From the NCBI RefSeq assembly GCF_057098645.1, contig NZ_CM169472.1: a stretch of DNA of 64,000 bases; one strand, given 5' to 3'. The position numbers and the translations under genes were made by a program. Below are positions 1 to 30,100 of this stretch, piece after piece (position 1 is the first letter of the stretch; the number at the start of each line of letters is the position of its first letter). The notes beneath the pieces were generated by a model. It was not told where the DNA came from. It was given only the letters and a program-made list of their open reading frames with translations, and ran no database searches.

Positions 1-2268
1 ATGGCCGTTAAAGCCTCCGGGCGTTTTGTCCCTCCGTCAGCATTTGCCGCAGGCACCGGTGAGACGTTTACCGGTGCTTATGCATGGAACGCGCCACGCG
101 AGGCCGTCGGGCGCGAAAGACCCCTTACACGTGACGAGATGCGTCAGGTGCAAGGTGTTTTATCCACGATTAATCGCCTGCCTTACTTTTTGCGCTCGCT
201 GTTTACTTCACGCTATGACTACATCCGGCGCAATAAAAGCCCGGTGCACGGGTTTTATTTCCTCACATCCACTTTTCAGCGCCGTTTATGGCCGCGTATT
301 GAGCGCGTGAATCAGCGCCATGAAATGAACACCGACGCGTCGTTGCTGTTTCTGGCAGAGCGTGACCATTATGCGCGTCTGCCGGGGATGAATGACAAGG
401 AGCTGAAAAAGTTTGCCGCCCGTATCTCATCGCAGCTTTTCATGATGTATGAGGAACTCTGCGATGCATGGGTTGATGCACATGGCGAGAAAGAATCGCT
501 GTTTACAGATGAGGCGCAGGCGCATCTGTATGGTCATGTTGCTGGCGCTGCACGTGCTTTCAATATTTCCCCTCTCTACTGGAAAAAATACCGTAAAGGA
601 CAGATGACCACGAGGCAGGCATATTCTGCCATTGCCCGTCTGTTTAACGATGAGTGGTGGACTCATCAGCTTAAAGGCCAGCGTATGCGCTGGCATGAGG
701 CGTTACTGATTGCTGTCGGGGAGGTCAATAAAGACCGTTCTCCTTATGCCAGTAAACATGCCATTCGTGATGTGCGTGCACGCCGCCAGGCAAATCTGGA
801 ATTTCTTAAATCGTGTGACCTCGAAAACAGGGAAACCGGCGAGCGCATCGACCTTATCAGTAAGGTGATGGGCAGTATTTCTAATCCTGAAATTCGCCGG
901 ATGGAGCTGATGAACACCATCGCCGGTATTGAGCGTTACGCCGCCGCAGAGGGTGATGTGGGGATGTTTATCACTCTGACCGCGCCGTCAAAGTATCACC
1001 CGACACGTCAGGTCGGAAAAGGCGAAAGTAAAACCGTCCAGCTAAATCACGGCTGGAATGATGAGGCATTTAATCCAAAGGATGCGCAGCGTTATCTCTG
1101 CCGCATCTGGAGCCTGATGCGCACGGCATTCAAGGATAATGATTTACAGGTCTACGGTTTGCGAGTCGTCGAGCCACACCACGACGGAACGCCGCACTGG
1201 CATATGATGCTTTTTTGTAATCCACGCCAGCGTAACCAGATTATCGAAATCATGCGTCGCTATGCGCTCAAAGAGGATGGTGACGAAAGAGGAGCCGCGC
1301 GAAACCGTTTTCAGGCAAAACACCTTAACCGGGGCGGTGCTGCGGGATATATCGCGAAATACATCTCAAAAAACATCGATGGCTATGCACTGGATGGTCA
1401 GCTCGATAACGATACCGGCAGGCCGCTGAAAGACACTGCCGCGGCTGTTACCGCATGGGCGTCAACGTGGCGCATTCCGCAATTTAAAACGGTTGGCCTG
1501 CCGACAATGGGGGCTTACCGTGAACTACGCAAATTGCCTCGCGGCGTCAGCATTGCTGATGAGTTTGACGAACGCGTCGAGGCTGCACGCGCTGCCGCAG
1601 ACAGTGGTGATTTTGCGTTGTATATCAGCGCGCAGGGTGGGGCAAATGTTCCGCGCGATTGTCAGACTGTCAGGGTTGCCCGTAGTCCGTCGGATGAAGT
1701 TAACGAGTACGAGGAAGAAGTCGAGAGAGTGGTCGGCATTTACGCGCCGCATCTCGGCGCGCGTCATATTCATATCACCAGAACGACGGACTGGCGCATT
1801 GTTCCGAAAGTGCCGGTCGTTGAGCCTTTGACTTTAAAAAGCGGCATCGCCGCGCCTCGGAGTCCTGTCAATAACTGTGGAAAGCTCACCGGTGGTGATA
1901 CTTCGTTACCGGCTCCCACACCTTCTGAGCACGCCGCAGCAGTGCTTAATCTGGTTGATGACGGTGTTATCGAATGGAATGACCCGGAGGTCGTGAGGGC
2001 GCTCAGAAGCGCATTAAAACACGACCTGAGAAGACCAAACCGTCAGCAAAGAAACGGAAGCCCGTTAAAACCACATGAAATTGCACCATCGGCCAGACTG
2101 ACCCGGTCTGAACGATTGCAAATCACCCGTATCCGTGTTGACCTTGCTCAGAACGGTATCAGGCCGCAGCGATGGGAGCTTGAGGCGTTGGCGCGCGGGG
2201 CAACAGTAATTTATGAAGGTGAGCGGTTTAGTTATGCTGTAAAAGACGATTGGGTGATGTTTTCTTAA
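1..2268 (+). CDS. A: P2 gpA-like replication initiation endonuclease (rolling-circle nickase); ORF starts at window base 1 so the true 5' end may lie upstream
   Basis: 755-aa ORF with HUH-type motif HWHMMLF and tyrosine pair YIAKYISK; synteny A-cos-Q-P as in P2. Confidence 0.9.
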   Translation: MAVKASGRFVPPSAFAAGTGETFTGAYAWNAPREAVGRERPLTRDEMRQVQGVLSTINRLPYFLRSLFTSRYDYIRRNKSPVHGFYFLTSTFQRRLWPRIERVNQRHEMNTDASLLFLAERDHYARLPGMNDKELKKFAARISSQLFMMYEELCDAWVDAHGEKESLFTDEAQAHLYGHVAGAARAFNISPLYWKKYRKGQMTTRQAYSAIARLFNDEWWTHQLKGQRMRWHEALLIAVGEVNKDRSPYASKHAIRDVRARRQANLEFLKSCDLENRETGERIDLISKVMGSISNPEIRRMELMNTIAGIERYAAAEGDVGMFITLTAPSKYHPTRQVGKGESKTVQLNHGWNDEAFNPKDAQRYLCRIWSLMRTAFKDNDLQVYGLRVVEPHHDGTPHWHMMLFCNPRQRNQIIEIMRRYALKEDGDERGAARNRFQAKHLNRGGAAGYIAKYISKNIDGYALDGQLDNDTGRPLKDTAAAVTAWASTWRIPQFKTVGLPTMGAYRELRKLPRGVSIADEFDERVEAARAAADSGDFALYISAQGGANVPRDCQTVRVARSPSDEVNEYEEEVERVVGIYAPHLGARHIHITRTTDWRIVPKVPVVEPLTLKSGIAAPRSPVNNCGKLTGGDTSLPAPTPSEHAAAVLNLVDDGVIEWNDPEVVRALRSALKHDLRRPNRQQRNGSPLKPHEIAPSARLTRSERLQITRIRVDLAQNGIRPQRWELEALARGATVIYEGERFSYAVKDDWVMFS
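1852..1871 (+). other. candidate phage replication origin (A-protein nick region) inside gene A
   Basis: GCGCCTCGGAGTCCTGTCAA in the 3' third of gene A resembles my recollection of the P2 ori nick region; memory-based. Confidence 0.3.
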
Positions 2269-2351: not shown

Positions 2352-3674
2352 ATGAGTGCGTTAAGGGATGAAGTATCTATGAAGGTTGCGTTCTCTAATG
2401 GCATGATAAACAAATTATGCAAAAGTTTTTTTTATAGTCATGGTAAGGAGCAGCCTTGTATTCAAGTCGGTAAAGCATTAGAAGATTTTGTTTTTTGGCT
2501 TGCATATAATGATGAGGAGATTGCAAAATGTGCTAGTAGGTTATTAAAAGCATATGGCCCCCAATTAGGTATAAGTAACCTTCATAATGCGAAAAGATTA
2601 TTGTTAGGTTTTTGTTCTGAAGCCTTCAATCGCATTGATGCTGATTTTTTGTCGCTTAATCCTGATAAGATTTGTGTTGATGATATTATAACGCAAGTTC
2701 ATAGAAAAAATCTTAGTGAGATGTTTAAGTGTTATATACTTTCACGAATAAAATCCTGTCCATATATTTATAATCTTGGGTGTGCTGGCTTTGATGGGAA
2801 GCTTGAGCTTAGAGAAAATTTATTTTTATATGGCCCGGGGCTAGGGGTGGAATTACTTTCTGATATTAAAGACAAAACTGACATCAAGGTTCCTGTTGAT
2901 TTTTATGATGATGAATATATGCGGCATAAACCAATTGGGAAATATTTTCGACAGTCAAAATCCTGCTTGGTGGTGGCATATGCTTCATCAGAGGATAAAG
3001 CGGTGAAAATGTTTGATAGTTTGTTTGGAGCTTTATGTCTTGCAGTTGATAATCCTTTTGCGATTAATCGAGTTGCTGTTAATAATCTAGTTGAGTCTTT
3101 TGGTGTCGGGAAATATCATGAAAGTGAGTTTCGGGTGAATATTCCGTCTGTAAATAATTTAAATATAACGGATTCAACCTTGGCGATACTTACAAAAATA
3201 CTTTCATCACCTGATAAAAGGATGTTGTCTGCTCTTTCCTTTATAGCGCACGGGTGGAGAGATGACAAACGTGAAAGGTTTTTGAATCAATTTATAGCAT
3301 TGGATGCTATGTATGGAACCAATAATGGTAATAAAAATTCAATTATTGGCGGTGTTTGCAGAGATGCGGCGAAAATTATTGATATTGATTCAAAAATAGG
3401 AATAATCTATGAGCTTAGGTGTAAGTTTGTTCATGGAGATATTTCATCGTTATCTGATAATGATAGCTATCGAAAGTTTATTGATAGCTATGGCGTGGAC
3501 CCTATTGTTTCTCTTTTTGAAATTCTTAAAGAATGCGTCCTTAATTATAATGGTACTTACAAAACGCCAAAAGATGTTGGAAAGGCAGATAGGTCTATTT
3601 GCGTTCCTGCTGAGTTGCTTCCAGCGGTTGAGAGGATGATAGCGGAATACAGTGGAGTTAAAAAAACAAACTAA
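2352..3674 (+). CDS. hypothetical protein; AT-rich cargo gene at the tin/old position of P2; candidate anti-phage defence protein with C-terminal Rx4H (HEPN-like) motif
   Basis: 440-aa ORF, visibly AT-rich and Lys/Ile/Asn-rich unlike flanking phage genes; motif R356-CKFV-H361-GD; sits between gene A and cos. Confidence 0.75.
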   Translation: MSALRDEVSMKVAFSNGMINKLCKSFFYSHGKEQPCIQVGKALEDFVFWLAYNDEEIAKCASRLLKAYGPQLGISNLHNAKRLLLGFCSEAFNRIDADFLSLNPDKICVDDIITQVHRKNLSEMFKCYILSRIKSCPYIYNLGCAGFDGKLELRENLFLYGPGLGVELLSDIKDKTDIKVPVDFYDDEYMRHKPIGKYFRQSKSCLVVAYASSEDKAVKMFDSLFGALCLAVDNPFAINRVAVNNLVESFGVGKYHESEFRVNIPSVNNLNITDSTLAILTKILSSPDKRMLSALSFIAHGWRDDKRERFLNQFIALDAMYGTNNGNKNSIIGGVCRDAAKIIDIDSKIGIIYELRCKFVHGDISSLSDNDSYRKFIDSYGVDPIVSLFEILKECVLNYNGTYKTPKDVGKADRSICVPAELLPAVERMIAEYSGVKKTN

Positions 3675-3815
3675 AGATGTTCTTTTTAGCCTCGCCTGCA
3701 TTAGGTGCATAAATTTGCATTCATTTTCAAATATATCTTTTGACAGCGAGCACCAGAACAGGCGCTTGCCGGGGGGATGATGCACCTGCATTAAAACCGC
3801 CCCATGAAGCGGGCG

Positions 3816-3834
3816 GGCGAGGCGGGGAAAGCAC
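3816..3834. other. cos: cos site (19-nt cohesive-end sequence of P2-type phages)
   Basis: GGCGAGGCGGGGAAAGCAC matches the remembered P2/186 cohesive-end sequence and lies immediately upstream of Q as expected. Confidence 0.6.
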
Positions 3835-3975
3835 TGCGCGCTGGCGGTGGTGCTGATTTTATTTTTTCAGCGTCTGAGCGCGTCGTGAAGGCGCTTAGTC
3901 TGCCCGTTGAGGCGTTGGTGTGTCTGCGGGGTGTTTTGTGCGGTGGTGAGCGTGTGAGGGCGTGATGACGGGGTG

Positions 3976-3998
3976 TAAAAAAGCCGCCCGCAGGCGGC
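3976..3998 (-). terminator. intrinsic terminator downstream of Q (minus strand)
   Basis: GC hairpin GCCGCC-CGCA-GGCGGC followed by a T-run on the minus strand just past the Q stop. Confidence 0.5.
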
Positions 3999-4003: not shown

Positions 4004-5038
4004 TCAGCCGTTGTCAGTGTCCAGTGAGTAGTTTTTAAAGCGGATGACCTCCTGACCGAGCCAGCCGTTTATCTCGCGGATCCTGTCCTGTAGCGGGATA
4101 AGCTCATTGCGGACAAAGACCTTTACCACTTTCTCAATATCACCCAGCGACCCGACGTTCTCCGGCTTGCCGCCCATCAACTGAAAGGGGATGCGGTGCG
4201 CGTCCAGCAGGTCAGCGGCGCTGGCTTTTTTGATATTAAAAAAATCGTCCTTCGTTGCCACTTCACTGAGCGGGATAATTTTAATGCCGTCGGCTTTCCC
4301 CTGCGGGGCATAGAGAAACAGGTTTTTAAAGTTGTTGCGGCCTTTCGACTTGACCATGTTTTCGCGAAGCATTTCGATATCGTTGCGATCCTGCACGGCA
4401 TCGGTGACGTACATGATATATCCGGCATGAGCGCCGTTTTCGTAATACTTGCGGCGGAACAGCGTGGCCGACTCATTCAGCCAGGCAGAATTAAGGGCGC
4501 TGAGATATTCCGGCAGGCCGTACAGCTCCTGATTAATATCCGGCTCCAGCAGGTGAAACACGGAGCCGGGCGCGAAGGCTGTCGGCTCGTTGAAGGACGG
4601 CACCCACCAGTAAACATCCTCCTCCACGCCACGGCGGGTATATTTTGCCGGTGAGGTTTCCAGTCTGATGACCTTACCGGTGGTGCTGTAACGCTTTTCC
4701 AGAAACGCATTACCGAACACCAGAAAATCCAGCACAAAGCGGCTGAAATCCTGCTGGGAAAGCCACGGGTGCGGAATAAACGTTGAAGCCAGAATATTAC
4801 GTTTGACGTAAATCGGTGAGCTGTGATGTACGGCAGCACGCAGGCTTTTTGCCAGACCGGTAAAGCTGACCGGTGGCTCATACCATCTGCCGTTACTGAT
4901 GCACTCGACGTAATCCAGAATGTCACGGCGGTCGAGTACCGGCACCGGTTCACCAAAGGTGAATGCCTCCATTTTCGGGGCGCTGGCGGTCATTTTTTTT
5001 GCCGCAGGTTGCGGTGTTTTCCCTTTTTTCTTGCTCAT
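4004..5038 (-). CDS. Q: portal protein (P2 gpQ-like)
   Basis: 344-aa ORF, same length as P2 Q; position and divergent QP/ONML arrangement. Confidence 0.93.
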   Translation of the reverse strand: MSKKKGKTPQPAAKKMTASAPKMEAFTFGEPVPVLDRRDILDYVECISNGRWYEPPVSFTGLAKSLRAAVHHSSPIYVKRNILASTFIPHPWLSQQDFSRFVLDFLVFGNAFLEKRYSTTGKVIRLETSPAKYTRRGVEEDVYWWVPSFNEPTAFAPGSVFHLLEPDINQELYGLPEYLSALNSAWLNESATLFRRKYYENGAHAGYIMYVTDAVQDRNDIEMLRENMVKSKGRNNFKNLFLYAPQGKADGIKIIPLSEVATKDDFFNIKKASAADLLDAHRIPFQLMGGKPENVGSLGDIEKVVKVFVRNELIPLQDRIREINGWLGQEVIRFKNYSLDTDNG

Positions 5039-6810
5039 CAGTAAAACTCCAGAATGGTGGATGTCAGCGGGGTGCTGATACCGGCGGTGAGTGGCTCATT
5101 TAACAGGGCGTGCATGGTCGCCCAGGCGAGGTCGGCGTGGCTGGCTTCCTCGCTGCGGCTGGCCTCATAGGTGGCGCTGCGTCCGCTGCTGGTCATGGTC
5201 TTGCGGATAGCCATAAACGAGCTGGTGATGTCGGTGGCGCTGACGTCATATTCCAGACAGCCACGGCGAATAACGTCTTTTGCCTTGAGCACCATTGCGG
5301 TTTTCATTTCCGGCGTGTAGCGGATATCGCGTGCGGCGGGATAGAACGAGCGAACGAGCTGGAACACGCCGACACCGAGGCCGGTGGCATCAATTCCGAT
5401 GTATTCGACGTTGTATTTTTCGGTGAGTTTGCGGATGGATTCAGCCTGGGTGGCAAAGTCCATGCCTTTCCACTGGTGACGTTCAAGTATTCTGAATTTG
5501 CCACCGGCCACCACCGGCGGTGCCAGCACCACGCATCCGGCACTGTCGCCACGGTGTGACGGGTCGTAACCAATCCATACCGGGCGGGAGCCGAACGGAT
5601 TGGCGGCAAAGGGTGCATAGTCTTCCCATTCTTCCAGCGTGTCGACCATGCAGCGTTGCAGCTCCTCGAACGGGAACACCGACGCCTTGTCGTCAACAAA
5701 TTCACACATGAACAGGTTTTTAAAATCGTCGGCGCTGTTTTCGCGTTTGAGCTGCTCAATGTCGAACAGCGTGCAGCCACCTTTCAGGGCGTCCTCAATG
5801 GTGACAATCTGTCGCCACTGGCCGTCCGCACAGAGAAGCCCACCGGCAAGGGCGTTATGACTGACGTCGATTTCCACGCGTTCGGCGGCGCTGGCGCGTC
5901 CCCGGTTATACAGTTCACCCGACCAGAACGGGTAGGCGTCGTGCGCCAGCGTGGACGGGGTGGAGAAATAGGTCGAACGCAGGTGACTCTGTGAGGCCAT
6001 ACCTGATGCCACCTTACGCAGTACCTGAAAATTCGGGATCCAGAAAATCTCGTCGACGTACAGGTCGCCGTTATGGCTCTGCGCGGTGTTGGAGTTGGTG
6101 CCGAGAAAAATCAGTTTTGCGCCGTTATTGCCCAGGACAATCGGATCACCGGTCAGGTCAACGTCAACCAGACGGGCAAAGGCGATGATGTATTCGCGGA
6201 ACACATACGCCTGCGTTTTACTGGCCGACAGAAAAATCTGGTTATGACCGGTTTTCAGGGCGCGCAGCAGCGCCTCGCGGGAAAAATAAAATGTCGCGCC
6301 AATCTGGCGGGATTTCAGGATATCGCGGATGCGGTGCTCAAGCCCGGCGCGATACCAGTGCAACTGATAATCGAAAGACTGCTCAAAGAAAATCTGCTCC
6401 AGCTTTTCGATGGCCTCGTCACTGAAAAAATTCTTTTTCGGTTTGCGCCGCCCGCCTTTGTTGCGGTTAGCGACGTTCGGATTAAGGTCTGCCTCGTTGC
6501 CGGTCTGGCTGTAGCGGTTTACCCGTGCCAGTCGTTCAATCTGGCGTCCGAGCAGGTCAATTTCCTTGAAATCACCGCCGGTTTTCTGCGGTTTGATGAT
6601 GAGCTGGGTCAGCCGCGCTTCCAGACTCATTTCGACACGGCTGATGGGGGCAACGCTGTCCCAGCCGTCGCGCTGTTTCCAGCTCTGCACCGTCGGGCGT
6701 TTCATCTGCAACATGGCGGCAATCTGCGGCACGGAAAATCCCTGCCAGTACAGCAGCGCCGCCTGACGACGCGGGTCGTGTAAAAGAGTGGTGTCTGTGG
6801 TGATGGTCAT
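5038..6810 (-). CDS. P: terminase large subunit / ATPase (P2 gpP-like)
   Basis: ORF track 5038..6840; start trimmed to internal Met (MTITTDTT...) giving 590 aa as in P2 P. Confidence 0.9.
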   Translation of the reverse strand: MTITTDTTLLHDPRRQAALLYWQGFSVPQIAAMLQMKRPTVQSWKQRDGWDSVAPISRVEMSLEARLTQLIIKPQKTGGDFKEIDLLGRQIERLARVNRYSQTGNEADLNPNVANRNKGGRRKPKKNFFSDEAIEKLEQIFFEQSFDYQLHWYRAGLEHRIRDILKSRQIGATFYFSREALLRALKTGHNQIFLSASKTQAYVFREYIIAFARLVDVDLTGDPIVLGNNGAKLIFLGTNSNTAQSHNGDLYVDEIFWIPNFQVLRKVASGMASQSHLRSTYFSTPSTLAHDAYPFWSGELYNRGRASAAERVEIDVSHNALAGGLLCADGQWRQIVTIEDALKGGCTLFDIEQLKRENSADDFKNLFMCEFVDDKASVFPFEELQRCMVDTLEEWEDYAPFAANPFGSRPVWIGYDPSHRGDSAGCVVLAPPVVAGGKFRILERHQWKGMDFATQAESIRKLTEKYNVEYIGIDATGLGVGVFQLVRSFYPAARDIRYTPEMKTAMVLKAKDVIRRGCLEYDVSATDITSSFMAIRKTMTSSGRSATYEASRSEEASHADLAWATMHALLNEPLTAGISTPLTSTILEFY

Positions 6811-6983
6811 GAATACCTCGCCGTGATGAATACACGGCAAGGCTACTGAGTCGCGCCCCGCGATTCGCTAAGGTGCTGTTGTGTCAGTGATAAGCCATCC
6901 GGGACTGATGGCGGAGGATGCGCATCGTCGGGAAACTGATGCCGACATGTGACTCCTCTAATCACTATTCAGGACTCCTGACA

Positions 6984-7838
6984 ATGGCAAAAAAAGTCTC
7001 AAAATTCTTTCGTATCGGCGTTGAGGGTGACACCTGTGACGGGCGTGTCATCAGTGCGCAGGATATTCAGGAAATGGCCGAAACCTTTGACCCGCGAGTC
7101 TATGGTTGCCGCATTAACCTGGAACATCTGCGCGGCATCCTGCCTGACGGTATTTTTAAGCGTTATGGCGATGTGGCCGAACTGAAGGCCGAAAAGATTG
7201 ACGATGATTCGGCGCTGAAAGGCAAATGGGCGCTGTTTGCGAAAATCACCCCGACCGATGACCTTATCGCGATGAACAAGGCCGCGCAGAAGGTCTATAC
7301 CTCAATGGAAATTCAGCCGAATTTTGCCAATACCGGCAAATGTTATCTGGTGGGGCTGGCCGTCACCGATGACCCGGCAAGCCTCGGCACGGAATACCTG
7401 GAATTCTGCCGCACGGCAAAACACAACCCTCTGAACCGCTTCAAATTAAGCCCTGAAAACCTGATTTCAGTGGCAACGCCTGTTGAGCTGGAATTTGAAG
7501 ACCTGCCTGAAACCGTGTTCACCGCCCTGACTGAAAAGGTGAAATCCATTTTTGGCCGCAAACAGGCCAGCGATGACGCCCGTCTGAATGACGTGCATGA
7601 AGCGGTGACCGCTGTTGCTGAACATGTGCAGGAAAAACTGAGCGCCACTGAGCAGCGCCTCGCTGAGATGGAAAACGCCTTTTCCGCACTTAAGCAGGAG
7701 GTGACTGACAGGGCGGATGAAACCAGCCAGGCATTCACCCGCCTGAAAAACAGTCTCGACCACACCGAAAGTCTGACCCAGCAGCGCCGCAGCAAGGCCA
7801 CCGGCGGTGGCGGTGACGCCCTGATGACGAACTGCTGA
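6984..7838 (+). CDS. O: capsid scaffolding protein (P2 gpO-like)
   Basis: ORF track 6918..7838; start trimmed to MAKKVSKFF; Ala/Glu-rich coiled-coil C-terminus; synteny. Confidence 0.88.
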   Translation: MAKKVSKFFRIGVEGDTCDGRVISAQDIQEMAETFDPRVYGCRINLEHLRGILPDGIFKRYGDVAELKAEKIDDDSALKGKWALFAKITPTDDLIAMNKAAQKVYTSMEIQPNFANTGKCYLVGLAVTDDPASLGTEYLEFCRTAKHNPLNRFKLSPENLISVATPVELEFEDLPETVFTALTEKVKSIFGRKQASDDARLNDVHEAVTAVAEHVQEKLSATEQRLAEMENAFSALKQEVTDRADETSQAFTRLKNSLDHTESLTQQRRSKATGGGGDALMTNC

Positions 7839-7892: not shown

Positions 7893-8966
7893 ATGCGCCA
7901 GGAAACCCGCTTTAAATTTAATGCCTACCTGTCCCGTGTTGCCGAACTGAACGGCATCGACGCCGGTGATGTGTCGAAAAAATTCACCGTTGAACCGTCG
8001 GTCACCCAGACCCTGATGAACACCATGCAGGAGTCCTCTGACTTTCTGACCCGCATCAACATTGTGCCGGTCAGCGAAATGAAAGGGGAAAAAATTGGTA
8101 TTGGTGTCACCGGCTCCATCGCCAGCACCACAGACACCGCCGGTGGCACCGAGCGTCAGCCGAAGGACTTCTCGAAGCTGGCGTCAAACAAGTACGAATG
8201 CGACCAGATTAACTTCGATTTTTATATCCGCTACAAAACGCTTGACCTGTGGGCGCGTTATCAGGATTTCCAGCTCCGTGTCCGTAACGCCATTATCAAA
8301 CGCCAGTCCCTTGATTTAATCATGGCCGGTTTTAACGGCGTGAGGCGTGCCGAAACCTCTGACCGCAGCAGTAACCAGATGCTGCAGGATGTGGCGGTCG
8401 GCTGGCTGCAGAAATACCGCAATGAAGCCACGGCGCGCGTGATGAGCAAGGTTACTGACGAGGAAGGTCACACGACCTCTGAGGTCATCCGCGTGGGTAA
8501 GGGCGGTGATTATGCCAGCCTCGATGCACTGGTGATGGATGCGACCAACAACCTGATTGAGCCGTGGTATCAGGAAGACCCTGACCTTGTGGTGATTGTG
8601 GGGCGTCAGCTACTGGCGGACAAGTATTTCCCCATCGTCAACAAGGAGCAGGACAACAGCGAGATGCTGGCCGCTGACGTCATCATCAGCCAGAAACGCA
8701 TCGGCAACCTGCCAGCGGTACGCGTCCCGTACTTCCCGGCGGATGCGATGCTCATCACGAAGCTGGAAAACCTGTCCATCTACTACATGGATGACAGCCA
8801 TCGTCGCGTGATTGTGGAAAACCCGAAACTCGACCGCGTGGAGAACTACGAGTCAATGAACATTGATTACGTGGTGGAAGACTACGCCGCCGGTTGTCTG
8901 GTGGAAAAAATTAAGGTCGGTGACTTCTCCACACCGACTAAAGTGACCGCAGAGCCGGGAGCGTAA
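7893..8966 (+). CDS. N: major capsid protein (P2 gpN-like)
   Basis: 357-aa ORF, same length as P2 N; synteny. Confidence 0.93.
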   Translation: MRQETRFKFNAYLSRVAELNGIDAGDVSKKFTVEPSVTQTLMNTMQESSDFLTRINIVPVSEMKGEKIGIGVTGSIASTTDTAGGTERQPKDFSKLASNKYECDQINFDFYIRYKTLDLWARYQDFQLRVRNAIIKRQSLDLIMAGFNGVRRAETSDRSSNQMLQDVAVGWLQKYRNEATARVMSKVTDEEGHTTSEVIRVGKGGDYASLDALVMDATNNLIEPWYQEDPDLVVIVGRQLLADKYFPIVNKEQDNSEMLAADVIISQKRIGNLPAVRVPYFPADAMLITKLENLSIYYMDDSHRRVIVENPKLDRVENYESMNIDYVVEDYAAGCLVEKIKVGDFSTPTKVTAEPGA

Positions 8967-8969: not shown

Positions 8970-9713
8970 ATGACGAGTCCCGCACAGCGCCACATGATGC
9001 GGGTCTCGGCAGCGATGACCGCGCAGCGGGACGCCGCCCCGCTGCGACATGCAACTGTCTATGAGCAGATGCTGGTCAAGCTGGCCGCAGACCAGCGCAC
9101 ACTGAAAGCGATTTATTCAAAAGAGCTGAAGGCCGCGAAAAAACGCGAACTGCTGCCGTTCTGGTTGCCGTGGGTGAACGGCGTGCTGGAGCAGGGCAAA
9201 GGTGCACAGGATGACATTCTGATGACGGTCATGCTGTGGCGTCTGGATACCGGCGATATTGCCGGTGCGCTGGAGATTGCCCGTTATGCCCTGAAGTACG
9301 GTCTGACCATGCCGGGTAAACACCGCCGCACCCCGCCGTACATGTTCACCGAGGAGGTGGCGCTCGCGGCCATGCGCGCCCACGCTGCCGGTGAGTCTGT
9401 GGATACCCGCCTGCTGACGGAGACCCTTGCACTGACCGCCACGGCAGACATGCCTGATGAAGTGCGCGCAAAGCTGCACAAAATCACCGGTCTGTTTCTG
9501 CGTGACGCTGGTGATGCCGCCGGTGCGCTGGCTCACCTGCAACGTGCGACACAGCTCGACTGTCAGGCAGGCGTCAAAAAAGAGATTGAACGACTGGAGC
9601 GGGAGCTGAAACCGAAGCCGGAGCCGCAGCCCAAAGCGGCCACCCGCGCCCCGCGTAAGACCCGGAGCGTGACACCGGCAAAACGTGGACGCCCGAAAAA
9701 GAAAGCCAGTTAA
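8970..9713 (+). CDS. M: terminase small subunit / endonuclease (P2 gpM-like)
   Basis: 247-aa ORF with basic C-terminal tail; synteny. Confidence 0.88.
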   Translation: MTSPAQRHMMRVSAAMTAQRDAAPLRHATVYEQMLVKLAADQRTLKAIYSKELKAAKKRELLPFWLPWVNGVLEQGKGAQDDILMTVMLWRLDTGDIAGALEIARYALKYGLTMPGKHRRTPPYMFTEEVALAAMRAHAAGESVDTRLLTETLALTATADMPDEVRAKLHKITGLFLRDAGDAAGALAHLQRATQLDCQAGVKKEIERLERELKPKPEPQPKAATRAPRKTRSVTPAKRGRPKKKAS

Positions 9714-9812: not shown

Positions 9813-10322
9813 ATGATGACGCTGATTATTCCGCGAAAGGAGGCTCCCGTGTCCGGTGAGGGTACGGTGGTCATCCCGCAACCGGCAGGCGACGAGCCGG
9901 TGATTAAAAACACGTTCTTTTTTCCCGATATCGACCCGAAGCGCGTCCGGGAACGTATGCGCCTTGAGCAGACCGTCGCCCCCGCCCGTCTGCGTGAGGC
10001 CATCAAGTCAGGCATGGCGGAGACAAATGCGGAGCTGTACGAGTACCGCGAACAGAAAATTGCCGCCGGTTTTACGCGTCTGGCGGACGTCCCGGCGGAC
10101 GATATCGACGGTGAAAGCATCAAAGTTTTTTACTACGAGCGCGCCGTGTGTGCGATGGCGACCGCGTCGCTTTATGAGCGTTATCGCGGCGTGGATGCCA
10201 GTGCGAAAGGTGACAAGAAGGCTGACAGCATTGACAGCACCATTGATGAGCTGTGGCGGGATATGCGCTGGGCGGTGGCGCGTATCCAGGACAAACCGCG
10301 CTGCATCGTGAGTCAAATCTGA
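9813..10322 (+). CDS. L: head completion/stabilisation protein (P2 gpL-like)
   Basis: ORF track 9753..10322; start trimmed to MMTLIIP giving 169 aa; stop overlaps X start (ATGA). Confidence 0.88.
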   Translation: MMTLIIPRKEAPVSGEGTVVIPQPAGDEPVIKNTFFFPDIDPKRVRERMRLEQTVAPARLREAIKSGMAETNAELYEYREQKIAAGFTRLADVPADDIDGESIKVFYYERAVCAMATASLYERYRGVDASAKGDKKADSIDSTIDELWRDMRWAVARIQDKPRCIVSQI

Positions 10323-10528: not shown

Positions 10529-10810
10529 ATGACAGCAGAAGAAAAAAGCGTCCTGTCGCTTTTCATGATTGGGGTGCTGATTGTTGTCGGCAAGGTGCTT
10601 GCCGGTGGTGAACCCATCACCCCGCGTCTGTTTATCGGGCGCATGTTGCTCGGTGGTTTTGTCTCGATGGTTGCCGGTGTTGTTCTGGTGCAGTTTCCTG
10701 ACCTGTCACTGCCTGCGGTGTGCGGCATCGGCTCCATGCTGGGTATCGCCGGTTATCAGGTGATTGAGATTGCCATTCAGCGCCGCTTTAAGGGCAGGGG
10801 GAAACAGTAA
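10529..10810 (+). CDS. Y: holin (P2 gpY-like)
   Basis: 93-aa ORF with hydrophobic helices, immediately upstream of the lysozyme gene. Confidence 0.85.
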   Translation: MTAEEKSVLSLFMIGVLIVVGKVLAGGEPITPRLFIGRMLLGGFVSMVAGVVLVQFPDLSLPAVCGIGSMLGIAGYQVIEIAIQRRFKGRGKQ

Positions 10811-11733
10811 TGCCGGTAATTAACACGCATCAGAATATCGCCGCCTTTCTCGACATGCTGGCGGTGTCCGAAGGGACGGCAAATCATCCGCTGACGAAAA
10901 ACCGGGGCTATGACGTGATAGTCACCGGACTGGACGGGAAGCCGGAAATCTTCACCGACTACAGTGACCACCCGTTCGCGCATGGCCGACCGGCGAAGGT
11001 GTTTAACCGTCGCGGTGAAAAGTCCACGGCCTCCGGTCGCTATCAGCAGCTTTACCTGTTCTGGCCGCACTACCGCAAACAGCTTGCCCTGCCGGATTTC
11101 AGTCCGTTGTCACAGGACAGACTCGCCATTCAGTTGATCCGCGAACGCGGTGCACTGGATGACATCCGGGCGGGACGCATTGAGCGCGCCATTTCACGCT
11201 GTCGCAATATCTGGGCGTCCCTGCCGGGTGCCGGTTACGGTCAGCGTGAGCATTCACTGGAAAAACTGGTCACCGTCTGGCGTACCGGCTTAAACGGAGT
11301 AAACACCATGAAGAAATTATCCCTTTCACTGATGCTGAATGTGTCGCTGGCGCTGATGCTGGCACTGTCACTGATTTACCCGCAGAGCGTGGCCGTCAGT
11401 TTTGTCGCTGCCTGGGCGATTCTGGCGACGGTTATCTGTGTGGTTGCCGGTGGTGTCGGCGTGTATGCCACTGAGTATGTACTTGAGCGCTACGGACGGG
11501 AGCTGCCGCCGGAATCGCTGGCCGTGAAGATTGTCACGTCGCTGTTTTTGCAGCCGGTGCCGTGGTGCAGACGGGCGGCGGGTCTGGTGGTGATGGTGGC
11601 GACGTTTATCTCGCTGGTCGCTGCCGGGTGGATTTTTACTGCACTGATTTATCTCGTGGCGTCGCTGTTTTTCCGGCTGATACGTAAAGCCTGTCGTCAG
11701 CGTTTTGAGGGGCGGGAACTATGTCAAAGCTGA
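10810..11733 (+). CDS. K: endolysin (P2 K-like lysozyme) reading through in frame into a LysA-like membrane domain (307 aa)
   Basis: N-terminal ~165 aa look like P2 K lysozyme; no stop codon before the LysA-like MKKLSLSLMLNV... segment in the same frame. Confidence 0.7.
   Translation: MPVINTHQNIAAFLDMLAVSEGTANHPLTKNRGYDVIVTGLDGKPEIFTDYSDHPFAHGRPAKVFNRRGEKSTASGRYQQLYLFWPHYRKQLALPDFSPLSQDRLAIQLIRERGALDDIRAGRIERAISRCRNIWASLPGAGYGQREHSLEKLVTVWRTGLNGVNTMKKLSLSLMLNVSLALMLALSLIYPQSVAVSFVAAWAILATVICVVAGGVGVYATEYVLERYGRELPPESLAVKIVTSLFLQPVPWCRRAAGLVVMVATFISLVAAGWIFTALIYLVASLFFRLIRKACRQRFEGRELCQS
11308..11733 (+). CDS. lysA: LysA-like membrane protein (possible internal in-frame start within the K reading frame)
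   Basis: ATG at 11308 in frame gives 141 aa, the length I recall for P2 LysA; hydrophobic segments. Confidence 0.5.
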   Translation: MKKLSLSLMLNVSLALMLALSLIYPQSVAVSFVAAWAILATVICVVAGGVGVYATEYVLERYGRELPPESLAVKIVTSLFLQPVPWCRRAAGLVVMVATFISLVAAGWIFTALIYLVASLFFRLIRKACRQRFEGRELCQS

Positions 11734-18388: not shown

Positions 18389-18390
18389 GA

Positions 18391-18945
18391 ATGAACTCAG
18401 TATTCTTTTCACCCGGAAGTAAAAGTTTTTATCTGCAAGAATTGTTTCCAGAATATGAGGATGCGGGAACGCTTCCTGATGATGTTATTGAAATTACCCG
18501 AGAAACATATGAGCAATTTCTTGGGCTGCATCCAGAAGGGAAAGAAATTGGCGCTGACAGTTCAGGACGGCCAATATGGATTAATTCCCCGCCGCCTTCA
18601 AAAGAGGATGAGGTGCTGGCGGCTGAAATGAAAAAAATATCTTTGGTTTCAGAAGTCAATACCTACATCAATACCCATCAGTGGCCTGGCAAAGCTGCTA
18701 TTGGTCGTCTGAAAGGTGACGAGCTGGAACAATATAATTTATGGCTGGATTATCTGGACGCACTGGAACTGGTTGATACCTCCAGTGCTCCAGATTGCGT
18801 ATTCCGCTCTATTCGATCACGGATTGGCATCGAAGTCCGATCAGCGATTCGCATCCATTCGATCAACCGGGAACTTAACTTTTTCTACCGCTTTTTAACG
18901 CGTTTTTTCGCTGCTTTCCACTACCGGGGGATTTTTCCTCAGTGA
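18391..18945 (+). CDS. G: tail fibre assembly protein (gpG-like) with C-terminus replaced by IS-derived sequence
   Basis: 184-aa ORF; native sequence ends at ...DTSSAPD (nt ~18795), then reads into the IS21-family element. Confidence 0.7.
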   Translation: MNSVFFSPGSKSFYLQELFPEYEDAGTLPDDVIEITRETYEQFLGLHPEGKEIGADSSGRPIWINSPPPSKEDEVLAAEMKKISLVSEVNTYINTHQWPGKAAIGRLKGDELEQYNLWLDYLDALELVDTSSAPDCVFRSIRSRIGIEVRSAIRIHSINRELNFFYRFLTRFFAAFHYRGIFPQ

Positions 18946-19650
18946 CTCTCCCTGAAGGACCACTCGGTGTGAGTTATGTACCAGTCTGTCCAGGATGGCA
19001 TCTGCTGTTGTTGGGTTCTCCATCAGACCATGCCATTTATCTACCGGGAACTGGCTTACCACTATCGTGCTGCTTTGTCCGTAACGATCCTCTATGAGCT
19101 CCAGAAGGTCATTACACTGGGCGTTACTTAACTGTTCCAGCCCCAGATCGTCCAGGATTAGAACCTGTATTTTTTGCAACTGTTTCAGATATTTCAGCCA
19201 GCTGCCATCAACACGTCCCTGAGCCAGTTGTTCCAGTAATCGCCCGGTTCTACAGTACCGGACGCTGTGTTTCTGTCGACATGCCTGTTCGCCCAGCGCA
19301 TTGGCTATCCAGCTCTTGCCACATCCTGTCGGACCGGTTATCAGCAGGTTTTTCCTGTGGGTTATGTAGTGGCCGTTCAGCAGTTCTCTCATCTGTTCAG
19401 CCCGCAGACCTCTTGAGGCCGGATAGCGCAGCCCTTCCGGTGTTGCCTGGTATTTCAGGCCGGCATTTTTTCTCAACCGTGCCACACGGCTGTTTTCCCT
19501 GCTCAGAAGCTCGTCATCAACCAGCAGCGTCAGCCTTTCCTCGAACGACAGTTCGTCGTAGGTCTGAGGCGTTTCCCGCTGCCGTATCAGGCTCCCGGCC
19601 ATCGCCGGGAGTTTCAGTTGGGTCAGTTTGTTTAACAGGTTATCACTCAT
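18895..19650 (-). CDS. istB: IS21-family helper ATPase IstB
   Basis: Walker A GPTGCGKS, Walker B VLILDDLG; start trimmed to MSDNLLNKL within ORF-track 18895..19893. Confidence 0.9.
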   Translation of the reverse strand: MSDNLLNKLTQLKLPAMAGSLIRQRETPQTYDELSFEERLTLLVDDELLSRENSRVARLRKNAGLKYQATPEGLRYPASRGLRAEQMRELLNGHYITHRKNLLITGPTGCGKSWIANALGEQACRQKHSVRYCRTGRLLEQLAQGRVDGSWLKYLKQLQKIQVLILDDLGLEQLSNAQCNDLLELIEDRYGQSSTIVVSQFPVDKWHGLMENPTTADAILDRLVHNSHRVVLQGESLRKNPPVVESSEKTR

Positions 19651-19666
19651 ACTGTTGTTCCTTCTG

Positions 19667-21202
19667 TCAGTGGTAGTAGCCCGGACCACGCAGGTTTTCA
19701 TGCTCTGAAGCATATGCCGGATGTTGTTCGCCCTGGCGGGATAATGGAAGCTCCAGGTTCTCCCGATGGTGACGCAGCAGATTGTCGATAAAGCGTCTGT
19801 CAGGGGCGTTATAGTGCAGGGCAACGTAACAGGCCTTTTCCAGCCGTTCCGGGCCGTATTTTTTCTGAAGTGCCAGCAGCCCCAGAACTGCACGATAAGC
19901 CAGTTCCGGATGGGGTTTTGCCTTCAGCATGGATTCAACCACCCGGCCTGTGGACGGGCCCGTACGTTTTCCCTGCTCGATCAGGCGTTCCGGTGTCCAT
20001 GTCCCGTGCTGCCGGTGGCGCTCTGGCATGTGAAGCGGATTGGTTGTGTGTTTATATTCATGTGTGCTGCGCGGATGTTGCGCCACACACTGCCCCTTGT
20101 GCCAGAGCTGTACCACCGACTGCCCCGCCTTCAGTGACAGACGCTGACCGACCAGTTCGTGTGGAACGGAGTACCAGTGACGGGCATATTCAACGTGGTA
20201 GTCAGGGCCAACCTTCACAGCTTTGTATTCCGTGTATTCATAAGGTGCCAGAGGCAGCGGAGAGAGTGCTGGCGCATCCAGTATGCGGAAGCGTTCTGCA
20301 CGGGTTTGATTGCCGTACCCCTTCATTGGCCGGTTATTCATGTCTGTCAGTAACTCCCTAAGGCGCGCATTCAGCGCCCTGAGCGTGTGGAAGGTTTCAT
20401 TACGGATGCGGGCAAGAAGCCATCGTTCAACGATGAGGACGCCGTTTTCTGCTTTTGGTTTATCTTTAGGTTTGCGTGGTCGGGCCGGGATGATAACCGT
20501 GCCATAGTGCTCAGCCAGTGCCTGATAACTGTCGTTGATGACAGGCTCATATCGATCGGCCTTTTTCACTGCGCTTCTGAGGTTATCGGGGATGAGCAGC
20601 TTCGGTACGCCGCCCAGGAAGGTCAGGCAACGGCTGTGGGCATTTAACCATGACATCATGTCCTGACCTTCGCACGCTTCAACGTAGGTATAGTTGGACG
20701 CCCCCATTACGGCCACGAAGATTGCCACGCGGCGTATCTCACCGGTGTCCGGATTAATAACAGGAACCGTAGGACCACAGAAGTCGATAAAAAGCTTTTC
20801 GCCGGCACGATGCTCCTGGCGCATGGAGAGACGTCGCGTTTTTTTCCACTCCCGGTAGCAACGGCAGAAGTGCGAGTATCCCATCGCTTTGTTACCCGCC
20901 TGTGCCTTGTATTCCATCCACAACAGTTGCCGCGTCACACCTGGTTTTCTCATTTCCGTATCGAAGTACAACATGTCAGGCATTACAAGCTCTGATGCAA
21001 AGGTGTCTTTGGGCGGAAAAATGAGTTTCTCCAGCGTGTCATGGGATATATCAGCAGGTAATGGCCATGACAGAGAAGAGGCTTTGAAGCGGGCAAGAAC
21101 CTCAAAAACGGTTGAGGCGCTGATGTGTAACGTCAGTCCGATACAACGGTTAGTCAGCTTCTTGTCGAACTTGAGCTGAAGGATCTTAAAACAGGTTTCC
21201 AT
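19667..21202 (-). CDS. istA: IS21-family transposase IstA
   Basis: N-terminal HTH then DDE-type core; start trimmed to METCFKIL within ORF-track 19667..21313 (track start is a TTG). Confidence 0.88.
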   Translation of the reverse strand: METCFKILQLKFDKKLTNRCIGLTLHISASTVFEVLARFKASSLSWPLPADISHDTLEKLIFPPKDTFASELVMPDMLYFDTEMRKPGVTRQLLWMEYKAQAGNKAMGYSHFCRCYREWKKTRRLSMRQEHRAGEKLFIDFCGPTVPVINPDTGEIRRVAIFVAVMGASNYTYVEACEGQDMMSWLNAHSRCLTFLGGVPKLLIPDNLRSAVKKADRYEPVINDSYQALAEHYGTVIIPARPRKPKDKPKAENGVLIVERWLLARIRNETFHTLRALNARLRELLTDMNNRPMKGYGNQTRAERFRILDAPALSPLPLAPYEYTEYKAVKVGPDYHVEYARHWYSVPHELVGQRLSLKAGQSVVQLWHKGQCVAQHPRSTHEYKHTTNPLHMPERHRQHGTWTPERLIEQGKRTGPSTGRVVESMLKAKPHPELAYRAVLGLLALQKKYGPERLEKACYVALHYNAPDRRFIDNLLRHHRENLELPLSRQGEQHPAYASEHENLRGPGYYH

Positions 21203-21299
21203 AGTGCTCCTGGATTTTCTCTTTCTGGACATTGACGTCTCCACTGGTTTAAACACGGCAATGGAGACTGTGGTGAAAAGAGTTAATTCCCGGAGTGAC

Positions 21300-21434
21300 T
21301 GGCAGGATGCCAATCAATGATCGGAAGCATGCCAAATCGTGATCGATTGTGATGCCAAACTGTGATCGGAGATGGATGCCAAATCATGATCGATTCGAAT
21401 GCCAAACTGCGATCGATTCAGATGCCATTTTGCA
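21300..21434. repeat. tandem ~20-bp terminal repeats of the IS21-family element (transposase binding sites)
   Basis: five to six copies of GATGCCAAA(C/T)NGTGATCGAT-like units; similar units inverted at the other end (18796..18880). Confidence 0.7.
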
Positions 21435-21450
21435 CCAGATATTGAATGGC

Positions 21451-22056
21451 CTACGCCTCCGGTAGTTCAGGCCAGATGACATCCGGCGCGGTGCTGATAT
21501 CTGTTGCAGTCACCGCGTCAATGTAATCCAGCACAGCGTTAAGCCGGGTTGTTTCTGCCTGCGTCAGCTTCCGCCCGGCCTGCAATTTCAGCTGAATCAG
21601 ACTAATGGAAGCCATAGCCGCATCAATCAGTGACTGGCGCCGTACTTCTGCCGCGTCTACTGCGGCGTTATGCTGTGCCTCAGTGTCGGTCACCCATTTC
21701 TCACCATCCCATTTATCGTATGACGTTAACGGGGCGATAGTGGTTGTATTTTCAGGGTAATCACCCGGAACTGTGATTTCTTTTGATTCTCCTGTTTCGG
21801 TGCTATAGACGATTTCACCGCGATGGTCTGGCACATATTCCCATGAGTTAAAATCTGCAGAACGGCAAATTGCATAACCAGCTTTATATGAGCCAGGAGC
21901 ATCTAAACAGGAACATGCCGGGATACCGACACCCACAGCAAGATATTCAGTTGATGTGGAAATATATTCCCGTGTTTCACCATCATAATTATAAACGGTA
22001 ATGTCTCCGGCCTTTGTGGCGATGAGTTCATTATTTAATACAGCTTTACTTATCAT
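21451..22056 (-). CDS. tail fibre assembly protein, alternative copy in the invertible segment
   Basis: 201-aa ORF ending ...APDVIWPELPEA; directly downstream of the alternative fibre C-terminal cassette. Confidence 0.85.
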   Translation of the reverse strand: MISKAVLNNELIATKAGDITVYNYDGETREYISTSTEYLAVGVGIPACSCLDAPGSYKAGYAICRSADFNSWEYVPDHRGEIVYSTETGESKEITVPGDYPENTTTIAPLTSYDKWDGEKWVTDTEAQHNAAVDAAEVRRQSLIDAAMASISLIQLKLQAGRKLTQAETTRLNAVLDYIDAVTATDISTAPDVIWPELPEA

Positions 22057-22565: not shown

Positions 22566-22592
22566 CTCCGGTTTTTATTCAGGGGGATGCTC

Positions 22593-29629: not shown

Positions 29630-29848
29630 ATGTTTCATTGTCCTTTATGCCAGCATGCCGCACATGCGCGTACAAGTCGCTATATCACTGACACGACAAA
29701 AGAGCGTTATCACCAGTGCCAGAACGTGAATTGCAGCGCCACGTTCATCACTTATGAGTCGGTACAGCGATACATCGTGAAGCCGGGAGAAGTCCACGCC
29801 GTAAGGCCGCACCCGTTGCCGTCAGGGCAGCAAATTATGTGGATGTAA
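29630..29848 (+). CDS. ogr: late transcription activator Ogr (zinc-finger)
   Basis: 72-aa ORF MFHCPLCQHAAH...CQNVNC with four Cys; start trimmed from ORF-track 29555. Confidence 0.9.
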   Translation: MFHCPLCQHAAHARTSRYITDTTKERYHQCQNVNCSATFITYESVQRYIVKPGEVHAVRPHPLPSGQQIMWM

Positions 29849-29860
29849 TTACAAACAGAA

Positions 29861-29886
29861 AGCCCCTCAGTCGAGGGGCTTTTTTT
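29861..29886 (+). terminator. intrinsic terminator after ogr
   Basis: AGCCCCTC-AGTC-GAGGGGCT hairpin followed by TTTTTTT. Confidence 0.75.
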
Positions 29887-29976
29887 GTCGATGTGGTCAA
29901 TGTGTGGACGTGACCAGAAATAAATCCTTTTATTTCATGCAATTAGATATCAAAAAATGTCACCAATAACTGACAT
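29887..29976. other. attR: attR: prophage right attachment region with Int arm-type repeats and a core overlapping the pflA start
   Basis: direct repeats TGTGGTCA / TGTGGACG resemble the P2 Int arm-site consensus TGTGGACA; host-like sequence resumes at ~29962. Confidence 0.5.
29950..29976 (-). pseudogene. pflA: pflA 5' fragment: native start codon plus five codons (MSVIG) fused to phage sequence, reading MSVIGDIF-stop
   Basis: reverse complement ATGTCAGTTATTGGT sits ~191 nt downstream of the pflB stop, where pflA starts in E. coli; the frame hits a stop after 8 codons. Confidence 0.7.
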
Positions 29977-30100
29977 TGCGGTGTTTCTCCAGATGTGGCC
30001 CATCTGAGGCCGTGTTGGTGCGCAGCTCGAAGGCTACGTCGAGTCTGTTTTGGCAGTCACCTTAAAGTATAGATAGCTGACAAAAAAGGCTCTCGTGCTA

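What the first reader, a model, noticed from the sequence alone, without database searches (positions are those of the whole stretch)
3816..3834. cos site retained intact inside the prophage
GGCGAGGCGGGGAAAGCAC, which I recall as the 19-nt cohesive end of P2, lies just upstream of Q with GC-rich flanks. Together with intact terminase genes P and M this suggests the prophage is packaging-competent or can support satellite packaging.
Basis: partly seen in the sequence, partly recalled or inferred. Interest (0 to 1): 0.3.

Follow-up and report, generated by a model that had tools for sequence, protein, structure and literature searches.

The report
Ordinary cos site of P2-type prophage
The 19-base sequence is the standard DNA-packaging cut site (cos) of a phage-P2-type prophage, sitting where it sits in every P2 lysogen, so it is a correct but ordinary observation.

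Summary
Observation confirmed. GGCGAGGCGGGGAAAGCAC occurs once, at 3816-3834 (+). It is identical to the cosL/cosR features of the P2 reference record and to the first 19 nt of satellite P4. The 55-bp core shared by P2 and P4 (3787-3841) is also present, with one substitution at a naturally variable position. The site lies between replication gene A plus a 440-aa cargo gene on one side and portal gene Q on the other. This is the canonical P2 prophage order, because P2 attP is far from cos. "Retained inside the prophage" is therefore obligatory geometry, not a notable survival. The same core occurs in 2,133 of 5,426 complete E. coli genomes. Q, P, O, N, M, L and ogr are full length and 97.5-100% identical to P2. 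The P/O late-promoter region is 173/173 identical. The packaging module is therefore intact, and its cos is the same as P4's. Whole-prophage competence is not shown. The int/C/cox arm lies outside the window. A 14-bp deletion fuses endolysin K to LysA. An IS21-family element interrupts tail-fibre-assembly gene G. P2-type phages are not SOS-inducible. Already known; low interest. In passing: TGCAT boxes at fixed offsets left of the nick are conserved across diverged P2/P4 flanks.

The parts
3816..3834 (.). 19-nt cohesive-end sequence of the P2-type cos. By homology, the top strand is nicked between 3815 and 3816 and the bottom strand between 3834 and 3835, giving 5' overhangs.
   Evidence: Exact and unique match. 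Identical to P2 cosL/cosR and to the P4 left end. The nick positions follow the 186 record's note. The Wphi and vB_YpM_117 records start at this base.
3787..3841 (.). 55-bp cos core shared by P2 and P4: 29 bp left of the nick, the 19-mer, and 7 bp to its right.
   Evidence: Anchored alignment of window, P2, P4 and 186. There is one difference from P2 (A for G at -12; 186 also has A). The 55-bp core is described in PMC9594776, PMC3931495 and PMC5694545, all citing Ziermann and Calendar 1990.
3697..3720 (.). Three distal TGCAT boxes, starting at -119, -110 and -100 from the nick. Inferred to be part of an extended packaging signal.
   Evidence: Among 53 flanks that are at most 70% identical to each other, 91% have GCAT near -110 and 91% near -100. 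Background is 0.005 per position. Both P2-like and P4-like elements show this, as do P2, P4 and 186 themselves.
3781..3791 (.). Proximal TGCAC and TGCAT boxes (-35 and -29) at the left edge of the core.
   Evidence: AGGTGCAT at 3703-3710 and ATGCACCT at 3780-3787 form an inverted pair, and CCTGCATTA is repeated at 3695 and 3785.
3983..3998 (-). Rho-independent terminator tQ of the P-Q operon.
   Evidence: Terminator-like hairpin followed by a T run. It corresponds to the P2 feature tQ at 160-181. The cos-to-Q spacer is about 95% identical to P2.
4004..5038 (-). Portal gene Q.
   Evidence: Pfam Phage_portal. 99.1% identical to P2 gpQ over residues 1-343 of 344.
5038..6810 (-). Terminase large subunit gene P.
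   Evidence: Pfam Terminase_6N, Terminase_6C and Terminase_5. 99.8% identical to P2 gpP over all 590 aa.
6811..6983 (.). Divergent late promoters PP/PO with the Ogr activator site.
   Evidence: 173 of 173 bases identical to P2 2994-3166, which holds the annotated activator binding site and transcription starts.
6984..7838 (+). Scaffold/protease gene O.
   Evidence: Pfam Phage_GPO. 99.6% identical to P2 gpO, full length.
7893..8966 (+). Major capsid gene N.
   Evidence: Pfam Phage_cap_P2. 97.5% identical, full length.
8970..9713 (+). Terminase small subunit gene M.
   Evidence: Pfam Phage_term_smal. 98.4% identical over 247 aa.
9813..10322 (+). Head completion gene L.
   Evidence: Pfam Phage_GPL. 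99.4% identical, full length.
29630..29848 (+). Late-gene activator ogr.
   Evidence: 100% identical to P2 Ogr over 72 aa.
1..2268 (+). Replication gene A, forming the left border of the cos-proximal hotspot. The window starts at its ATG.
   Evidence: Pfam Phage_GPA. 97.1% identical to P2 gpA. Several RefSeq E. coli chromosomes start at the same base.
2352..3674 (+). Single 440-aa AT-rich cargo gene in the A-to-cos hotspot, in the position of P2 orf91/tin/old.
   Evidence: No Pfam, NCBIfam, PADLOC or PDB match. It matches phrog_23812. RefSeq names it 'HEPN domain-containing protein'. R356 is invariant and H361 nearly invariant, forming an RxxxxH motif. GC is 0.35.
10810..11733 (+). Lesion 1: endolysin K fused in frame to lysA by a 14-bp deletion between two GGCGTACCG repeats.
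   Evidence: Alignment with P2 and strain CM2010-0578/1, ORF list and tblastn. The deletion is absent from all 5,426 complete E. coli genomes.
18796..21434 (-). Lesion 2: ISSso4-family IS21-like element (istA, istB) inserted 12 codons before the stop of tail-fibre-assembly gene G (which starts at 18391), flanked by CCAGAT on both sides.
   Evidence: PHROGs and Pfam hits to IstA and IstB. 99.7-99.9% identical to ISSso4-family copies. The junction is private to this genome. The exact ends are uncertain by a few bases.
29962..29974 (.). Candidate attR core (ACCAATAACTGAC), marking the right end of the prophage next to pflB.
   Evidence: It is the only 13-bp sequence shared between the attL region of strain CM2010-0578/1 and the window's ogr-pflB spacer. 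This is an inference and was not tested further.

Best explanation
This is the normal cos site of a Peduovirus (P2-type) prophage integrated at the pflA/pflB locus of an E. coli-type chromosome. P2 integrates through attP, which lies between ogr and int and far from cos. In the lysogen the two virion ends are therefore joined, and cos lies internally between the right-end accessory region (gene A plus a 440-aa cargo gene) and the left-end gene Q. After excision and replication the terminase (gpM plus gpP, docked on the gpQ portal of gpN/gpO procapsids) would recognise the cos region. It would make staggered nicks at 3815/3816 on the top strand and 3834/3835 on the bottom strand, producing 19-nt 5' cohesive ends. 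This mechanism is inferred from P2 biology and was not tested here. What is shown here is that the cis site is intact: the 19-mer, the 55-bp core and the flanking conserved boxes. The trans-acting packaging and head genes and their late promoters are also essentially identical to P2. The core equals P4's, so the element could in principle act as helper for a P4-like satellite. Whether this prophage still yields infectious, released virions is uncertain. It has two private lesions (the K-LysA fusion and the IS in G), and its immunity/integration arm is outside the window.
For: Exact, unique 19-mer, identical to P2 cosL/cosR and to the P4 left end. The 55-bp core matches P2 at 54 of 55 positions. 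Phage isolate records begin exactly at window 3816. The flanking genes are A and Q/P/O/N/M/L by Pfam, at 97.5-99.8% identity to P2 and full length. ogr is 100% identical, and the PP/PO region is 173/173 identical. P2 attP is at 24356-24382. The same prophage order occurs in E. coli strains 4/4 and CM2010-0578/1. The core is present in 2,133 of 5,426 E. coli genomes. The gpA-gpQ locus is a described cos-adjacent hotspot with 18,150 occurrences (PMC9122126). Estimated prophage size is about 33.7 kb against 33.6 kb for P2. This adds the 29,974 bases in the window to a left arm of about 3.7 kb, as in CM2010-0578/1.
Against: There is nothing against the identification. Against full function: the 14-bp deletion fuses K to LysA, and the IS interrupts G inside its conserved C-terminal motif. 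The left arm (int, C, cox, B) was not seen. No sequenced phage isolate carries this particular left flank or cargo, since homology to isolates starts at 3780. No cleavage or packaging data exist for this element.
Confidence: 0.92

Rival explanations
1. The site is intact but functionally idle. The prophage is a recently crippled, decaying element, and cos is unchanged only because too little time has passed for it to mutate. It would not produce or release particles for itself or for a satellite.
For: There are two lesions private to this genome among 5,426 E. coli genomes: the K-LysA fusion and the ISSso4-family insertion in G. K is annotated in the P2 record as essential for host cell lysis. 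A related prophage in another strain has an ISEc12 element in Q, which shows that such decay happens.
Against: All other late genes compared are full length and 92.7-100% identical to P2, except S, I, H and G, which belong to variable modules. The IS lies inside an invertible tail-fibre segment whose crossover sites (17922-17948 and 22511-22537) and invertase are present. The alternative H'/G' pair (21451-22565) is intact and could bypass the damaged G. The lysA ribosome-binding site and start codon are retained. The effect of the K fusion is untested.
Confidence: 0.4
2. The 19-mer belongs to a P4-like satellite rather than to a P2-type helper prophage.
For: The 19-mer and the 55-bp core are identical or nearly identical in P4.
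Against: The site is flanked by gpA on one side and by tQ, Q and P on the other. Sequence from +20 to +190 is about 95% identical to P2, whereas P4 diverges from +27 onward. No second cos-like sequence exists in the window.
Confidence: 0.01
3. It is a 186-type (Eganvirus), SOS-inducible element, so induction would be a practical test.
For: The family and the overall cos architecture are the same.
Against: The 186 cohesive end differs at 2 of 19 positions. The proteins are 97-100% identical to P2. There is no tum or orf97 homologue and no LexA box between A and cos.
Confidence: 0.02
4. It is a chance occurrence of a GC-rich 19-mer.
For: None.
Against: The match is exact. Only 2 of 100 shuffles gave any match even with 3 mismatches allowed. 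The conserved context extends for hundreds of bases on the right.
Confidence: 0.001

Closest known systems
cos of bacteriophage P2 (NC_001895; cosL 1-19, cosR 33575-33593; Ziermann and Calendar 1990)
   Same: The 19-nt cohesive-end sequence is identical. The 55-bp core matches at 54 of 55 positions. The spacer, terminator tQ and Q/P to the right are the same. The terminase, portal and capsid genes and the late promoters are 97.5-100% identical.
   Different: The accessory DNA to the left differs. A single 440-aa RxxxxH (HEPN-type) gene replaces orf91/tin/old, and the sequence is unrelated to P2 from about -35 leftwards apart from the TGCAT boxes. The attachment site also differs: pflA/pflB rather than the P2 sites.
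cos of satellite P4 (NC_001609)
   Same: The 19-mer is identical. The 55-bp core is shared, as are the distal GGTGCAT-N5-TTGCAT boxes at the same offset.
   Different: P4 diverges from +27 rightwards and has psu/gop flanks. The window has P2 flanks.
cos of coliphage 186 (NC_001317)
   Same: The architecture is the same, and 186 shares the window's A at -12.
   Different: Two substitutions in the 19-mer (GGCGTGGCGGGGAAAGCAT). 186 carries the SOS operon tum/orf97 next to cos, which is absent here.
cos-proximal defence hotspot of P2-like prophages (Rousset et al. 2022, PMC9122126)
   Same: A variable cargo lies between gpA and gpQ directly next to cos. This is the locus described there, with 18,150 occurrences in E. 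coli.
   Different: The cargo here gave no match in PADLOC, Pfam or NCBIfam, and I did not check the paper's supplementary tables for it.

Membership tests
P2-type (Peduovirus) cos site | 19-nt cohesive-end sequence GGCGAGGCGGGGAAAGCAC | tested here: met
   Exact match at 3816-3834. Identical to the P2 record's cosL/cosR and to the sequence quoted in PMC3931495.
P2-type (Peduovirus) cos site | 55-bp core conserved between P2 and P4 | tested here: met
   Window 3787-3841 matches P2 at 54 of 55 positions. The one difference is at a position that also varies in 186 and P4.
P2-type (Peduovirus) cos site | Position between the right-end accessory region after gene A and the left-end genes Q/P | tested here: met
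   A at 1-2268, cargo at 2352-3674, cos, tQ, Q at 4004-5038, P at 5038-6810.
P2-type (Peduovirus) cos site | Cognate terminase (gpP, gpM) and portal (gpQ) encoded by the same element | tested here: met
   All are full length, at 99.8%, 98.4% and 99.1% identity to P2.
P2-type (Peduovirus) cos site | Staggered cleavage by terminase giving 19-nt 5' overhangs in virion DNA | not testable with these tools
   This needs virion DNA end mapping or an in vitro ter reaction. It is supported only indirectly, by isolate records that start at this base.
Functional (plaque-forming) P2-type prophage | All essential late genes intact | tested here: inconclusive
   Head and packaging genes, most tail genes and ogr are intact. 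K is fused to LysA by a 14-bp deletion. G is interrupted by an IS, though an intact alternative G'/H' pair sits in the invertible segment.
Functional (plaque-forming) P2-type prophage | Integrase, C repressor, Cox and B present and intact | not testable with these tools
   These genes lie upstream of gene A, outside the window. They were seen only in related strains.
P4-like satellite cos | cos flanked by satellite genes (psu/sid/delta on one side, the gop-beta-cII or int region on the other) | tested here: not met
   The flanks are P2 gpA and Q/P, and the sequence to the right follows P2, not P4.
186-type (Eganvirus) SOS-inducible element | 186 cohesive end plus the LexA-controlled tum operon next to cos | tested here: not met
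   There are 2 mismatches to the 186 19-mer. tblastn finds no tum or orf97 hit in the prophage better than E = 0.04, and no LexA box lies between A and cos.

The most novel reading that the evidence does not exclude
The functional cos of all P2/P4-type elements may extend about 120 bp left of the nick, as an array of TGCAT boxes at fixed offsets. These sit at -119, -110 and -100, plus -35 and -29, in the window at 3697, 3706, 3716, 3781 and 3787. The boxes survive in flanks that are otherwise unalignable. They could be the recognition array for the small terminase subunit or a host bending protein, analogous to cosB. If so, they set the true inner boundary of the cos-adjacent defence hotspot. 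The accessible literature speaks only of a 55-bp core. I could not read Ziermann and Calendar 1990 to see whether this region was already mapped.
Probability: 0.3. Interest if true: 0.3.

Novelty: already known. Interest (0 to 1): 0.07.

Why it matters
It matters very little as a discovery. The cos of P2 has been known since the 1970s, and about 39% of complete E. coli genomes carry the same core. Its practical value is for annotation. It fixes the virion ends of this prophage at 3816 and 3834. It marks the right boundary of the cos-proximal cargo hotspot. It also shows that the element has the cis and trans requirements to package itself or a P4-like satellite. The more useful outcomes are by-products. 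The prophage carries two private lesions that put its viability in doubt. An uncharacterised HEPN-type gene sits at a known anti-phage hotspot. A positionally conserved TGCAT-box array beside cos could be tested as part of the packaging signal.

Tried and rejected
- **Key papers not available.** I tried to read Ziermann and Calendar 1990 and the Christie and Calendar P2 review to get the experimentally mapped minimal cos. Neither is held. The 55-bp figure therefore rests on papers that cite them.
- **Cargo gene.** The 440-aa protein gave no match in PADLOC, Pfam, NCBIfam or PDB sequences. Only a PHROG of unknown function and an RxxxxH motif were found.
- **Identity of the IS.** I compared it with the ISEc12 copy that interrupts Q in strain 22AR0010. 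There was no similarity, so it is a different IS21-family element, of the ISSso4 family.
- **SOS control.** A search for 186 tum, orf97 and LexA boxes found nothing in the prophage apart from one CTGT-N8-ACAG inside the IS.
- **Hairpin reading of the cos flank.** I considered whether the GC-rich inverted repeat left of the nick (3797-3816, terminator-like on the minus strand) is a hairpin maintained by compensatory changes. By eye, the 186 substitutions in it are not compensatory, so I did not pursue a structural reading.
- **Source genome.** I looked for it in the E. coli collection in order to read the left arm of the prophage. The best match was only 99.2%, so the source genome is not there.
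- **Phage isolates with this flank.** No sequenced isolate carries this cargo or left flank.

Full report
**Observation.** GGCGAGGCGGGGAAAGCAC is present exactly once in the window, at 3816-3834 on the + strand. Allowing three mismatches yields no further site, and dinucleotide shuffles give 0.02 such matches on average. The P2 reference record NC_001895 annotates this same 19-mer as cosL (1-19) and cosR (33575-33593). P4 NC_001609 begins with the identical 19 bases. Phage 186 differs at two positions. PMC3931495 quotes the same sequence as the 19-nt 5'-extruding end of P2-related phages.

**Extent of the site.** I aligned circularised P2, P4 and 186 ends with the window, anchored at the nick. 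The block common to all four runs from -29 to +26. This is window 3787-3841, the 55-bp core that the literature attributes to Ziermann and Calendar 1990. The window differs from P2 at one position (-12, A for G), where 186 also has A. To the right, the spacer, terminator tQ and the start of Q are about 95% identical to P2. To the left, similarity to P2 and to all sequenced phage isolates stops at about 3780.

**Context.** Pfam and tblastn against P2 proteins give the following order:
- A (1-2268), then a 440-aa cargo gene (2352-3674), then cos and tQ.
- Q (4004-5038, minus strand) and P (5038-6810, minus strand).
- O, N, M (8970-9713) and L, followed by the lysis and tail genes.
- ogr (29630-29848), followed by pflB.

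Identities to P2, all full length, are Q 99.1%, P 99.8%, O 99.6%, N 97.5%, M 98.4%, L 99.4% and Ogr 100%. The divergent PP/PO late-promoter region is identical at 173 of 173 bases. The cis site and the trans-acting packaging and head module are therefore intact.

**Why an internal cos is expected.** In P2, attP lies at 24356-24382, between ogr and int. Integration therefore permutes the map and leaves the joined ends inside the prophage. The same order (int, C, cox ... A, cargo, cos, Q, P ...) is annotated in E. coli strains 4/4 and CM2010-0578/1. The 55-bp core occurs at 2,902 places in 2,133 of 5,426 complete E. coli genomes. At least 120 viral contigs also carry it. Rousset et al. 2022 analysed 18,150 occurrences of this gpA-gpQ locus as a cos-adjacent hotspot (PMC9122126). 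"Retained intact inside the prophage" thus describes the default state.

**Limits on "packaging-competent".**
- The window begins at the ATG of gene A, as do several RefSeq chromosomes that appear to have been rotated to start at this gene. The int/C/cox/B arm is therefore unseen.
- A 14-bp deletion between two GGCGTACCG repeats removes the K stop codon and fuses K residues 1-159 in frame to LysA. None of the 5,426 genomes shares this deletion.
- An ISSso4-family IS21-like element (about 18796-21434, flanked by CCAGAT) interrupts tail-fibre-assembly gene G. The insertion is 12 codons before the stop, within the conserved APD-IEWP motif. This junction is also private to this genome.
- The IS lies inside an invertible segment bounded by Din-type crossover sites at 17922-17948 and 22511-22537, next to an invertase gene. 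The alternative H'/G' pair is intact, so the damage may be bypassed in the other orientation.
- With the IS included, the element would be about 33.7 kb against 33.6 kb for P2, so size is not a barrier. This is an inference that assumes a left arm like that of CM2010-0578/1.
- P2 is the prototype of non-inducible temperate phages (PMC5322425). No tum/orf97 homologue or LexA box lies between A and cos. "Induce the lysogen" is therefore not a workable test as stated.

**Mechanism.** This part is inferred from established P2 biology and was not tested here. After derepression, excision and replication, gpM and gpP would recognise cos and nick at 3815/3816 (top strand) and 3834/3835 (bottom strand). 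The cut DNA would then be packaged into gpN/gpO procapsids through the gpQ portal. Because the core is the same as P4's, a P4-like satellite could use this helper. None is present in the window, which holds no second cos.

**By-product: TGCAT boxes.** I took 113 cos regions from viral contigs and reduced them to 53 representatives that are at most 70% identical to each other over -140..-31. In these, GCAT occurs near -110 in 91% and near -100 in 91%, against a background of 0.005 per position. There is a weaker box near -123, a TGCA(A/C) at -35 and the invariant TGCAT at -29. Both P2-like and P4-like elements show the pattern. The window has all five boxes, at 3697, 3706, 3716, 3781 and 3787. 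The fixed spacing in otherwise unalignable flanks suggests selection tied to cos function. Which protein binds is unknown. I also could not check whether the 1990 mapping already covered this region.

**Verdict.** It is already known and ordinary.

Noticed in passing
window 11270-11300 (ORF 10810-11733): A 14-bp deletion between two GGCGTACCG direct repeats removes the stop codon of endolysin gene K. It fuses K(1-159) in frame to LysA, giving a 307-aa ORF. The deletion is absent from P2, from the closest E. coli prophage and from all 5,426 complete E. coli genomes searched.
   Followed up: partly
window 18796-21434: An ISSso4-family IS21-like element (istA, istB), 2,639 bp and flanked by CCAGAT, is inserted near the 3' end of tail-fibre-assembly gene G. 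The junction was not found in any other complete E. coli genome.
   Followed up: yes
window 17922-22537 and 22548-23186: Invertible tail-fibre segment. The 27-bp inverted crossover sites lie at 17922-17948 and 22511-22537. Alternative fibre tip and chaperone genes sit on the minus strand (21451-22565). A Hin/Gin-type serine invertase gene is adjacent. The segment now also carries the IS.
   Followed up: partly
window 2352-3674: A 440-aa AT-rich (GC 0.35) single-gene cargo at the known cos-proximal anti-phage hotspot. It has no Pfam, NCBIfam, PADLOC or PDB match. The family is small (26 clusters, in Enterobacterales, Vibrio, Shewanella and others), with invariant R356 and near-invariant H361 forming an RxxxxH (HEPN-type) motif. 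This makes it a candidate uncharacterised defence gene.
   Followed up: partly
window 13264-14508 (minus strand): A 414-aa AAA-type ATPase is inserted between tail genes S and V, at the position of P2 orf30. It matches the PADLOC candidate defence family PDC-S59 (E = 3e-31). The insertion is absent from the closest related prophages, and neighbouring S is only 57% identical to P2 S.
   Followed up: partly
window 3697-3791; loci L011-L130: TGCAT boxes at fixed offsets (-119, -110, -100, -35 and -29) from the cos nick are conserved in 53 mutually diverged P2-like and P4-like flanks. A semi-conserved GCCAG..CTGGCG element lies near -60.
   Followed up: partly
window 1 (start of the window): The window starts exactly at the ATG of P2 gene A, and several RefSeq E. 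coli chromosomes start at the same base. This suggests that assembly-rotation software picked this phage replication gene as the record's start gene, which splits the prophage across the record ends.
   Followed up: partly
window 29849-30167; L006 4283-4295: The prophage is integrated at the 5' end of pflA, next to pflB. The candidate att core is ACCAATAACTGAC at 29962-29974. In the related strain the phage side appears to supply a replacement 5' end for pflA.
   Followed up: partly
L131 4746-7324 (E. coli 22AR0010): In a near-identical prophage of another strain, an ISEc12 element with an 8-bp target duplication interrupts portal gene Q just beside cos. This is an independent example of IS-mediated decay of this prophage type.
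   Followed up: no
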